Assembly: GCF_009914755.1 (NCBI RefSeq)
Contig: NC_060927.1
Origin: the human T2T-CHM13v2.0 reference genome, Homo sapiens
Direction: 5' to 3' (one strand)
Length of the DNA: 64,000 nt
Shown: piece by piece, positions 3,055 to 4,263 of the stretch
Numbering within the stretch: the first letter of the stretch is position 1
Layout of the letters: each line of letters starts with the position of its first letter
Notes under the pieces: model-generated
The model's input: only the letters and a program-made list of their open reading frames with translations
The model's database searches: none
Told to the model about the DNA's origin: nothing
Program-made: the position numbers and the translations under genes

Positions 3055-4263
3055 GTTTATACTTTAAGTTCTGGGATGCATGTGCAGAATGTGCAGGTTT
3101 GTTACATAGGCACACATGTGCCATGGTGGTTTGTTGCATCTATCAACCCATCACCTAGGTTTTAAGCCCCGCATGCATTAGGTATTTGTCTTGATGCTTT
3201 CCCTCTCCTCATCCCCCACCTTCTGACAGGCCCTGGTGTGTGTTGTTCCCTTCCCTGTGTCCATGTGGTCTCATTGTTCAACTCCCACTTATGAGTGAGA
3301 ACATGCAGTGTTTGGTTTTCTGTTCCTGTATTAGTTTGCTGAGGATAATGGCTTCCAGCTTCATCCATGTCCCTGCAAAGGGCATGATCTTGTTCCTTTT
3401 TATGGCTACATAGTATTCCATGGTGTATATGTACCACATTTTCTTTATCCAGTATATCATTGATGGGCATTTGGGTTGGTTCCATGTCTTTGCTATTGTA
3501 AATAGTGCTGCAATAAACATAGGTGTACATGTGTCTTTGTAGTAGAATGATTTATACTCCTTTGGGTATATACCCAGTAATGGGATTGTTGGGTCAAATG
3601 GTATTTCTGAAAAAGAATCACGGGTACTCCAGTTCCCTTTCTTACTACAGACTACTAGGGAGTTAGTCGTGCCTCACAACACTGGAGACCTGAGGTATTT
3701 CTGTGATGTTGAACTTTTTTTCATATGTTTCTTGGTAGCATAAATGTCTTCTTTCGAGAAGTGTCTGTTCATGTCCTTTGCCCACTTTTTGATGGGGTTT
3801 TTTGTTTCATTCTTGTAAATTTGTTTAAGTTCCTTGTAGATTCTGGATATTGGACCTTTGTCAGATGGTTAGATTGCAGAAATTTTCTCCCATTCTGTAG
3901 GTTGCCTGTTCACTCTGATGATAGTTTCATTGACTGTGCAGAAGCTCTTTAGTTTAATTCCAATTTGTCAATGTTAGCTTTTGTTGCAAGTGCTTTTGGC
4001 ATTTTTGTCATGAAATCTTTGCCCATACCTATGTCCTGAATGGTATTGCCTAGGTTTTCTTCTAGGGTTTTTATGGTTTTGATTTTACATTTAAGTCTTT
4101 AATCCACCTTGAGTTAATTTTTGTATAAGGTGTAAGGAAGGGGTCCAGTTTCAGTTTTCTGCATATGGCTAGTCAGTTCTCCCAGCACCATTTATTAAAC
4201 AAGGAATCATTTGATCTTTGCTTGTTTTTGTCAGGTTTGTCAAAGGTCAGACGGTTGTAGATG
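3055..4263 (-). mobile_element. 5'-truncated L1PA (3'UTR plus ORF2 C-terminus) with internal deletion/insertion
   Basis: Antisense L1PA 3' end (tatactttaagttctggg...); ORF 3278-3520 MFIAALFTIAKTWNQPKCPS is the ORF2 C-terminus; degenerate 14-bp TSD aacacagtgttttt (3041-3054) / aacatattgttttt (4264-4277). Confidence 0.93.

What the first reader, a model, noticed from the sequence alone, without database searches (positions are those of the whole stretch)
3600..3703. 89-bp inverted templated insertion inside an L1PA, copied from 6868-6956
Seen: 3607-3695 is the reverse complement of 6868-6956 (83/89 identical, all six differences transitions). The 10-mer ggtatttctg occurs on both sides (3600-3609 and 3694-3703). 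The junctions overlap the donor by 3 nt (ctg) and 2 nt (gg). From my recall of the L1PA consensus, roughly 200 bp of L1 is missing where the sequence resumes at tgatgttgaac. Established: microhomology-guided jumps to nearby DNA, re-copying of the break flank and an accompanying deletion are hallmarks of Pol theta-mediated end joining and FoSTeS/MMBIR. Inference: a three-switch repair event after insertion, or a reverse-transcriptase template switch to target-proximal DNA during L1 integration.
Basis: partly seen in the sequence, partly recalled or inferred. Interest (0 to 1): 0.8.

Follow-up and report, generated by a model that had tools for sequence, protein, structure and literature searches.

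The report
Old break-repair scar inside an L1
An ancient L1 element on human chromosome 3 lost about 200 bases and had the gap patched with a backwards copy of unique DNA lying 3 kb away, a well-preserved but ordinary example of a known kind of DNA repair scar.

Summary
Window 3607-3695 is the reverse complement of 6868-6956 (83/89, six transitions). In the whole T2T genome this sequence occurs only at these two places. It interrupts a minus-strand, 5'-truncated L1 (3056-4263) that has target-site duplications. L1 homology stops at 3609 and resumes at 3703. Intact relatives carry 201 nt there (4 of 8 exactly). GGTATTTCTG flanks the insert and occurs nowhere else in the window. Junction microhomologies are 3, 2 and 1 nt.

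Best reading (about 0.55): one repair event after the L1 had inserted. The right-hand end, resected to a long minus-strand 3' tail, first copied 9 nt of the left end. It then folded back on itself across a 3,164-nt loop and copied about 84 nt, and finally annealed to the same left terminus. This explains the orientation, the donor lying to the right, and the exact 10-mer. Loop size and 2-nt microhomology match human fold-back junctions (PMC3907307).

A replication-fork template switch or an L1 reverse-transcriptase switch at integration is not excluded. Timing is unresolved because no primate orthologues could be searched. It is a new member of a known kind, with no sign of function and low interest.

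The parts
3041..3054 (-). Left copy of the L1 target-site duplication (AACACAGTGTTTTT on the + strand). Its T-run merges with the very short poly(A) remnant.
   Evidence: Read directly. It matches 4264-4278 at 12 of 14 positions plus one extra T.
3056..3609 (-). 3' portion of a minus-strand, 5'-truncated L1, up to the break.
   Evidence: About 90% identical over query 3-555 to many genomic L1 copies. Every alignment ends at 3608-3610.
3600..3609 (+). First copy of GGTATTTCTG. It is native L1 sequence and the inferred 3' terminus of the left-hand end.
   Evidence: 5 of 8 relatives have the identical 10-mer, followed by GTTCTAG. The 10-mer occurs only twice in the window.
3607..3695 (+). Inverted copy of 6868-6956, 83/89 identical. 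The part that is neither L1 nor re-copied flank is 3610-3693 (84 nt).
   Evidence: Genome-wide it matches only the donor.
3694..3703 (+). Second copy of GGTATTTCTG. GG is shared with the end of the donor copy, TATTTCT is re-copied from the left flank, and the final G is shared with the right-hand L1.
   Evidence: Relatives have GCATTTCTCTAATGA(C/T)CA before GTGATG, so the native sequence does not explain it without an extra substitution and an extra 10-bp deletion.
3703..4263 (-). Continuation of the same L1, in the same orientation and collinear, up to its 5' truncation point. 201 nt of L1 are missing between 3609 and 3703.
   Evidence: Query 646/649-1209 aligns at about 89% to L1 copies. The gap in relatives is 201 nt in 4 of 8.
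4264..4278 (-). Right copy of the L1 target-site duplication (AACATATTGTTTTTT), followed by GAC. The inferred endonuclease site on the + strand is TTTTTT/GA.
   Evidence: Read directly.
6868..6956 (-). Donor (template): unique, non-repeat DNA. Its minus strand carries the sequence found in the top strand of the insert.
   Evidence: In a genome search of 6500-7400, only the Alu piece at about 7205-7313 is dispersed, and 6868-6956 hits only the insert. No L1-like sequence lies near it.

Best explanation
After this L1 had inserted by ordinary target-primed reverse transcription, a DNA break (two-ended, or at a collapsed fork) occurred inside the 201-nt stretch that is now missing. It was repaired in one event by three rounds of microhomology-primed synthesis.

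Resection of the right-hand end removed the + strand. That left the minus strand as a long 3' tail which physically contains the donor, 3.2 kb from its own tip. Additions to that tip read right to left on the + strand:
1. The tip paired through 1 nt (G3609) with the very end of the left-hand 3' tail, copied 9 nt (GGTATTTCT), and came off.
2. It folded back on its own tail across a 3,164-nt loop, paired through 2 nt (GG at 6868-6869), copied about 84 nt, and came off again.
3. Its new CAG-3' end paired with the same left terminus (CTG-3', 3 nt). Fill-in and ligation completed the repair.

The result is an aborted fold-back rescued by end joining. Shown: the anatomy, the uniqueness of the pair, the deletion size and the microhomologies. 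Inferred: the order of steps, the kind of break, the enzymes and the timing. The scar has no apparent function.
For: 1. The 89-nt inverted pair exists only here in the genome. The donor therefore really is the neighbouring DNA and not a dispersed repeat or an inherited L1 variant. No L1 in the genome has the plain deletion joint (0 forward and 0 reverse matches at up to 2 mismatches).

2. Geometry (inference). The insert's top strand equals the donor's minus strand, and the donor lies to the right. This is what self-priming of the right-hand end's resected tail predicts. The left end, or a first-strand L1 cDNA, would instead need the + strand of the donor as template, and resection of the right-hand end removes exactly that strand.

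3. Both uses of the left end stop at the same nucleotide, G3609. This explains why the flanking repeat is an exact 10-mer. Pol theta-type joining searches from the 3' terminus, and aborted first tracts are rarely over 10 bp (PMC7165422, passages read).

4. Loop length (3,164 nt) and 2-nt inverted microhomology sit in the middle of sequenced human germline fold-back junctions. Spacers there are 766-70,466 bp with a median of 3,428, and microhomology is 2-8 bp, with 2 bp the commonest at 7 of 13 (PMC3907307, passages read).

5. Fold-back synthesis followed by capture of the other end has been shown experimentally in yeast (PMC11724301, abstract read).

6. Total microhomology of 6 nt over three joints has P = 0.034 under a random model.

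7. No L1-like homology lies near the donor that could have guided ordinary recombination.

8. Weak timing hint. The L1's own branch is 5.5-6.2%, against 3.4% per copy for the 89-mer pair (1.9% outside CpG). P(as few or fewer differences if of equal age) is 0.14 for all sites and 0.02 for non-CpG sites.
Against: - Timing is not established. With a lower L1 branch of 4.5%, the same tests give P = 0.31 and 0.07. The star-phylogeny branch may also include differences between source elements, and the relatives were chosen for similarity to the window copy.
- The tract length (84 nt) and template distance (3.2 kb) lie outside what was catalogued for Pol theta insertions (3-30 bp), for yeast fold-back insertions (5-34 bp, next to the break) and for MMBSearch events (template within 100 bp).
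- The first step rests on 1 nt of pairing.
- The present-day loop includes Alu elements (about 4756-5078 and 5730-6004) whose age relative to the event I did not determine.
- A replication-fork template switch gives the same product.
- Five of the six differences cluster in 12 nt, which simple decay only partly explains.
Confidence: 0.55

Rival explanations
1. A replication-fork template switch (FoSTeS/MMBIR) after L1 insertion, with no two-ended break. A nascent strand stalled after G3609, switched by 3 nt of microhomology to a template 3.2 kb away in inverted orientation, and copied about 86 nt. It returned 10 nt behind where it had left (2 nt), stalled again at the same base, and then jumped 201 nt ahead (1 nt).
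For: The product is identical to the one observed. Stalling twice at the same nucleotide would also explain the exact 10-mer. The published signature of MMBIR-type insertions is an inverted copy of a nearby template with microhomology at both joints. Multi-template germline events (up to five templates) occur at about 100 per person for events of 25 bp or more (PMC8421209, passages read).
Against: The needed template strand lies 3.2 kb from the fork. It would be either still duplex ahead of the fork or already replicated behind it, so extra assumptions are needed (my inference). No sequence feature that would stall a fork was identified at 3609/3610.
Confidence: 0.2
2. An event during L1 integration. 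The first-strand cDNA (the + strand, grown left to right from 3056) left the L1 RNA at 3609 and copied about 86 nt from target-proximal DNA or a local + sense RNA. It returned to the L1 RNA 10 nt back, then skipped 201 nt and continued to the truncation point at 4263.
For: - The direction of cDNA synthesis fits the order of the pieces.
- At the time, the donor lay only about 2.6 kb from the integration site.
- The divergence of the 89-mer pair (6.7%, 95% interval 2.5-14.1%) is statistically compatible with the age of the L1.
Against: - It needs three switches by the reverse transcriptase, including two back onto the same RNA.
- The template must be the + strand of the donor, the strand that resection of the reciprocal end removes, or else an unannotated RNA. 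No gene is annotated in the window, and I saw no splice-site-like boundaries (read).
- In the cited experiments the extra genomic sequence was attributed to processing of the reciprocal end, not to a piece internal to the L1.
- Both L1 segments have the same orientation, so twin priming does not apply.
- The weak divergence hint points to a younger event.
Confidence: 0.17
3. Other readings:
(a) Two independent events: an 84-bp insertion with a 10-bp target duplication, plus a separate 201-bp deletion.
(b) A reverse-transcribed RNA patch at a break (class 2 templated-sequence insertion), or L1-mediated retro-insertion of a local transcript (class 1).
(c) An assembly artefact.
For: (a, b) The insert is flanked by a direct repeat of 10 bp. 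That meets the 'at least 5 bp duplication' criterion used for class 1 events (PMC5110952, passages read).
(c) Nothing positive.
Against: (a) The deletion would have to begin exactly at the end of the second 10-mer.
(b) There is no poly(A) tail on either strand next to the repeat. The A5 run is present in the donor itself. There is no TTTT/A-like site. Class 2 patches come from distant transcribed loci, whereas this donor is 3.2 kb away in cis in an unannotated region.
(c) The two copies differ by six transitions, three of them at CpG sites. This is as expected for old, independently decaying copies. P(6 or more differences) is 0.0008 if the pair were only as diverged as human and chimpanzee (the 1.2% figure is recalled).
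Confidence: 0.08

Closest known systems
Fold-back priming at resected chromosome ends: human germline inverted duplications (Hermetz et al. 2014, PMC3907307) and short fold-back inverted insertions at breaks in yeast (PMC11724301)
   Same: A 3' tail pairs with itself through 2-8 nt of inverted microhomology. Loop (spacer) lengths are 766-70,466 bp with a median of 3,428 bp, against 3,164 nt and 2 nt here. In yeast, the synthesised end is then captured by end joining to the other end.
   Different: The human cases run on to make megabase inverted duplications and dicentric chromosomes; here synthesis stopped after about 84 nt. The yeast insertions are 5-34 bp and use microhomology next to the break, not 3 kb away.
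MMBIR-type templated insertions (MMB-TI; PMC8421209)
   Same: An inverted copy of a nearby template, microhomology at both joints, replacement of resident sequence, and several templates in one event. Such events are present as inherited germline variants.
   Different: This template is 3,172 nt away.
Pol theta-mediated end joining with templated insertions (TINS; PMC7165422)
   Same: Repeated aborted synthesis from the 3' terminus. A direct-repeat copy of the opposite end of 10 nt or less, microhomologies of 1-3 nt, and an accompanying deletion.
   Different: Typical insertions are 3-30 bp and are templated from the immediate flanks. An 84-nt tract copied from 3.2 kb away is atypical.
Short-range template-switch mutations (four-point model; PMC5453318, PMC7954356)
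   Same: A segment is replaced by a reverse-complement copy of nearby sequence.
   Different: That model explicitly excludes long-range and multi-round switches (PMC5453318, passage read). This event needs an extra step (the flank re-copy) and a 3-kb jump. For PMC7954356 I saw only the listing and the start of the abstract.
Non-canonical L1 insertions with template switching or locally templated genomic sequence (PMC11702581)
   Same: L1 sequence joined to short pieces templated from DNA near the integration site, with microhomology at the joints.
   Different: There the extra pieces are attributed to processing of the reciprocal end at the insertion's edge. Here the piece is internal, between two collinear L1 segments in the same orientation.

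Membership tests
MMBIR-type templated insertion (MMB-TI) | The insertion is an inverted copy of a template on the same chromosome, and the template is retained | tested here: met
   83/89 reverse-complement match, both copies present; unique pair in the genome.
MMBIR-type templated insertion (MMB-TI) | Microhomology at both insertion junctions | tested here: met
   CTG (3 nt) and GG (2 nt). Total over three joints is 6 nt, P = 0.034.
MMBIR-type templated insertion (MMB-TI) | Template within about 100 bp of the insertion (operational limit of MMBSearch, PMC8421209) | tested here: not met
   3,172 nt between the arms.
Pol theta templated insertion (TINS) | Insertion of 3-30 bp identical to flanking DNA, with single tracts rarely over 10 bp | tested here: inconclusive
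   The 9-nt re-copied flank (3694-3702) fits. The 84-nt tract from 3.2 kb away does not (PMC7165422).
Pol theta templated insertion (TINS) | Dependence on POLQ | not testable with these tools
   Needs genetics. An ancient event cannot be assigned to an enzyme from sequence.
Fold-back priming | The inverted copy lies on the same side as, and is templated by, the resected strand of the priming end | tested here: met
   The insert's top strand equals the donor's minus strand, and the donor lies to the right of the break. That this strand was the template is inference.
Fold-back priming | Loop of about 0.8-70 kb and inverted microhomology of 2-8 bp at the priming site (PMC3907307) | tested here: met
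   Loop 3,164 nt; GG, 2 nt.
Fold-back priming | Outcome is a large inverted duplication or dicentric chromosome | tested here: not met
   Only 89 nt are duplicated, and the flanks are collinear.
Canonical L1 insertion by target-primed reverse transcription (the host element) | Target-site duplication, T-rich endonuclease site, 3' end with A-tail, 5' truncation | tested here: met
   Duplication 3041-3054 / 4264-4278 (12 of 14 positions). TTTTTT/GA site. L1 homology from 3056 to 4263. The A-tail is very short and merges with the duplication.
L1 twin priming (5' inversion) | The inverted segment is L1 sequence from the same RNA | tested here: not met
   The inverted piece is non-L1 unique DNA, and both L1 segments are co-oriented and collinear.
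Class 1 templated-sequence insertion (L1-mediated retro-insertion of a local transcript) | Duplication of recipient sequence of at least 5 bp at both junctions | tested here: met
   10-bp direct repeat.
Class 1 templated-sequence insertion (L1-mediated retro-insertion of a local transcript) | Poly(A) tract next to the 3' duplication, and insertion at TTTT/A | tested here: not met
   There is no A-tail at the 3' end on either strand. The A5 at the start of the insert is templated from the donor.
Short-range template switch (four-point model) | A single switch-and-return within a short range | tested here: not met
   It needs three joints and a 3.2-kb jump. The model's authors exclude such cases (PMC5453318).

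The most novel reading that the evidence does not exclude
The scar is a fossil of L1 ORF2p leaving its own RNA in mid-synthesis, copying about 86 nt of target-proximal genomic DNA (or a nascent local RNA) 2.6 kb from the nick, and returning twice to the L1 RNA. This would be an internal L1/genomic chimera made during integration. It would show that the L1 reverse transcriptase can sample chromosomal templates kilobases from its target in the germline. A milder novel reading is that kilobase-range fold-back synthesis is usually aborted and rescued by end joining, and leaves small inverted patches like this one as the common, benign outcome of a process known mainly from its catastrophic products.
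Probability: 0.17. Interest if true: 0.5.

Novelty: new member of a known kind. Interest (0 to 1): 0.22.

Why it matters
On its own it matters little. It is a neutral scar in a dead L1 in a gene desert, with no gene in the window and the only RefSeq functional element 46 kb away.

Its value is as an unusually legible example. Every base of the joint can be assigned: native L1, an 84-nt inverted copy, and a 9-nt flank re-copy. The donor is unique in the genome.

Its geometry (3.2-kb loop, 2-nt microhomology) links two literatures that are normally separate: small templated insertions, and the fold-back events that make large inverted duplications.

Current catalogues of templated insertions look only within about 100 bp (PMC8421209) or exclude long-range and multi-round switches (PMC5453318). 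Events of this kind are therefore probably under-counted. A genome-wide search for them, using interrupted repeats as a built-in 'before' sequence, would be feasible.

Tried and rejected
Dispersed repeat as the source: rejected.
- The 126-mer 3590-3715 hits only itself and the donor.
- Region 6500-7400 gives only Alu matches, at about 7205-7313, besides the insert. Only 40 of 3,643 first-look candidates were scored and very common words are skipped, so old, diverged repeats could be missed.

Deletion inherited from a source L1: rejected. There were 0 matches to the plain deletion joint at up to 2 mismatches (one search failed for a machine reason).

The second 10-mer as native L1 (GCATTTCT...): rejected. 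It needs an extra C-to-T change plus an extra 10-bp deletion, against a perfect 10/10 re-copy.

Homology-guided recombination through L1-like sequence near the donor: rejected. All hits in 4266-9000 are noise, and those near the donor have E of 2 or more.

Spliced-RNA template: no splice-site-like boundaries at the donor ends (read). An unspliced RNA is not excluded.

Dating the event against the L1:
- I used pairwise distances only and built no consensus. The left part used 15 relatives and the right part 6, all chosen from the top hits.
- The result is only suggestive.

'All six differences are transitions' as a signature: not informative. Transitions make up 0.57-0.77 of the L1's own differences, so six of six has P of 0.03-0.21.

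Primate orthologues, GRCh38, population variation, and Dfam/RepeatMasker subfamily naming could not be consulted with these tools. 'L1PA' is therefore not verified beyond about 90% identity to many genomic L1 3' ends.

Full report
**1. The observation**

The window sequence and the repeat finder show an inverted pair, 3607-3695 and 6868-6956. It is 89 nt long, 93% complementary, with 3,172 nt between the arms. A script gives 83/89 identities. The differences are at 3620, 3621, 3623, 3625, 3631 and 3667, all transitions, and identity collapses immediately outside the 89 nt on both sides.

GGTATTTCTG is at 3600-3609 and 3694-3703 and nowhere else in the 64-kb window. The expected count is 0.16, and 0 of 100 shuffles gave two matches. 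Among low-copy self-matches in the window, this is the second-highest in identity.

**2. What surrounds it**

The host element is an L1 on the minus strand.
- Its 3' end is at about 3056 and its 5' truncation is at 4263.
- Its target-site duplications are AACACAGTGTTTTT (3041-3054) and AACATATTGTTTTTT (4264-4278). They agree at 12 of 14 positions plus one extra T.
- Its T-rich nick site is TTTTTT/GA.

So the element itself arrived by ordinary target-primed reverse transcription.

In a search of the whole genome (the 3.1-Gb T2T assembly is held as G000), the L1 aligns at about 89-91% to many copies. Alignments of the left part end at 3608-3610 and those of the right part start at 3700-3710 (61 matches listed, 40 of 20,432 first-look candidates scored).

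I examined eight relatives that span the gap. Between the bases matching 3609 and 3703 they have 201 nt in four cases, and 195, 200, 208 and 504 nt in the others; the last carries an Alu insertion. The window has 93 nt there.

In the relatives the left 10-mer is followed by GTTCTAG, and 5 of 8 have the identical 10-mer, so all ten bases are native L1. The right segment is preceded by GCATTTCTCTAATGA(C/T)CA. The second 10-mer is therefore not native sequence. Reading it as native would need an extra substitution and an extra 10-bp deletion, whereas a re-copy of the left flank fits 10 of 10.

**3.

- The 126-mer 3590-3715 matches only itself and the donor in the genome.
- The donor region 6500-7400 matches only the insert, plus Alu copies over about 7205-7313 (40 of 3,643 candidates scored).
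- No genomic sequence has the plain deletion joint (0 forward and 0 reverse at up to 2 mismatches).
- No L1-like sequence lies near the donor.

Hence the filler was copied from the neighbouring unique DNA. It was not inherited from a source element and was not guided by repeat homology.

An assembly chimera cannot be tested here, but it is unlikely. The copies differ by six transitions, three of them at CpG sites, as old and independently decaying copies would.

**4. Anatomy of the joint**

Reading the + strand:
- native L1 up to G3609
- 84 nt (3610-3693) that are neither L1 nor flank
- GGTATTTCT again (3694-3702)
- L1 from G3703 onward

The shared bases at the three joints are CTG (3 nt), GG (2 nt) and G (1 nt). 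The last could also be read as TCTG against the native TCAG, with one mismatch. A total of 6 nt over three joints has P = 0.034 under a random-base model.

**5. Mechanism**

The top strand of the insert has the sequence of the donor's minus strand, and the donor lies to the right of the break.

If a break within the missing 201 nt was resected, the right-hand end kept its minus strand as a 3' tail. That tail contains the donor, 3,164 nt from its tip.

Adding to that tip in turn reproduces every base:
1. A 9-nt copy of the left end.
2. About 84 nt copied by folding back on itself at GG.
3. Annealing of the new CAG-3' to the left end's CTG-3'.

This also explains three features: both contacts with the left end stop at the same nucleotide, the copy is inverted, and the donor is on the right. 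This is my inference; no tool tested it.

It agrees with the published behaviour of several systems.
- Aborted, terminus-proximal synthesis tracts of 10 nt or less in Pol theta-mediated joining. Direct repeats there arise from intermolecular priming and inverted repeats from hairpin priming (PMC7165422, passages read).
- Fold-back synthesis with capture of the second end in yeast (PMC11724301, abstract read).
- Human germline fold-back junctions. Loops are 766-70,466 bp with a median of 3,428 bp, and inverted microhomology is 2-8 bp, most often 2 bp (PMC3907307, passages read).

The 84-nt tract and the 3.2-kb distance are outside the ranges catalogued for three classes:
- Pol theta insertions (3-30 bp).
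- Yeast fold-back insertions (5-34 bp).
- MMBSearch events, with the template within 100 bp (PMC8421209, passages read).

The four-point template-switch model excludes long-range and multi-round events by design (PMC5453318, passages read).

**6. Rivals**

A replication-fork switch (FoSTeS/MMBIR) gives the same product. It also explains the 10-mer, by two stalls at one base. However, it needs an accessible single-stranded template 3.2 kb from the fork.

An integration-time event is geometrically possible, because the first-strand cDNA is the + strand, grown from 3056 rightwards. Experimental L1 insertions do sometimes include sequence templated from nearby genomic DNA (3 cases) and template-switched reverse transcripts (PMC11702581, sections 7 and 13 read). 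But it would need three switches, two of them back to the same RNA. It would also need the + strand of the donor, or an unannotated RNA, as template. Twin priming does not apply, because both L1 segments have the same orientation.

L1-mediated retro-insertion of a local transcript fails for lack of any A-tail. The A5 is in the donor itself.

Two independent events would require the deletion to start exactly at the end of the repeat.

**7. Timing**

I used pairwise distances only and a star-tree decomposition.
- The window L1's own branch is 5.5% for the left part (15 relatives) and 6.2% for the right part (6 relatives). It is 5.7% and 5.9% when CpG-prone columns are removed.
- The 89-mer pair differs at 6/89 (6.7%, 95% interval 2.5-14.1%), or 3/81 outside CpG sites.
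- If the event were as old as the L1, about 9.8 differences (all sites) or 8.9 (non-CpG) would be expected. P(observed or fewer) is 0.14 and 0.02. With a 4.5% branch these become 0.31 and 0.07.

This is a weak hint that the scar is younger than the L1, not a demonstration. The relatives were selected as best hits, and the branch may include source-element differences.

The scar is not recent. P(6 or more differences) is 0.0008 at human-chimpanzee-like divergence (the 1.2% figure is recalled).

**8. An unexplained detail**

Five of the six differences lie within 12 nt (3620-3631), at the end of the insert that the fold-back model makes last. P is 0.003 for uniformly placed changes, and 0.016-0.025 if CpG sites mutate 10-15 times faster. 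Three of the five are CpG transitions. The rest could be chance, or errors of the repair synthesis. An outgroup would tell.

**9. Verdict**

I have sharpened it to a specific strand model. It remains undecided on timing and enzyme.

It is a new, very clean member of a known class of mutation, with no evidence of function. Interest is low. Its main use is as a template for a census of kilobase-range fold-back patches, which current catalogues do not look for.

Noticed in passing
window 3620-3631: Five of the six differences between insert and donor cluster within 12 nt at the left end of the insert (P = 0.003 uniform; 0.016-0.025 allowing 10-15x faster CpG change). This could be CpG decay plus chance, or errors of the repair synthesis near a template switch.
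   Followed up: partly
window 57570-57629 and 57690-57751: A direct repeat of about 62 bp at 95% identity, 120 bp apart, in low-copy sequence. It may be a small local duplication.
   Followed up: no
window 12691-12823: A stretch of about 143 bp that matches its own reverse complement at 78%. It is palindrome-like, perhaps an old hairpin-forming transposon remnant.
   Followed up: no
window 48927-49323 and 51304-51701 (also 4378-4741): Two direct copies (84%, 399 bp) of a repeat bracket the RefSeq enhancer at 50196-50695. A third, more diverged copy (66-70%) lies next to the L1 studied here. The family was not identified.
   Followed up: no
window 60715-61080: A second L1 3'-end fragment, 82% identical to 3050-3431 and in the same orientation.
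   Followed up: no
L020 (G000:C9:134991014-134994579), within the stretch homologous to the missing 201 nt: This related L1 copy carries an Alu insertion with a T-run and a duplicated GTTTCCTGACTTTTT flank, inside the same 201-nt segment that is deleted in the window copy. It is an unrelated event, noted only because it changes that relative's gap length to 504 nt.
   Followed up: no
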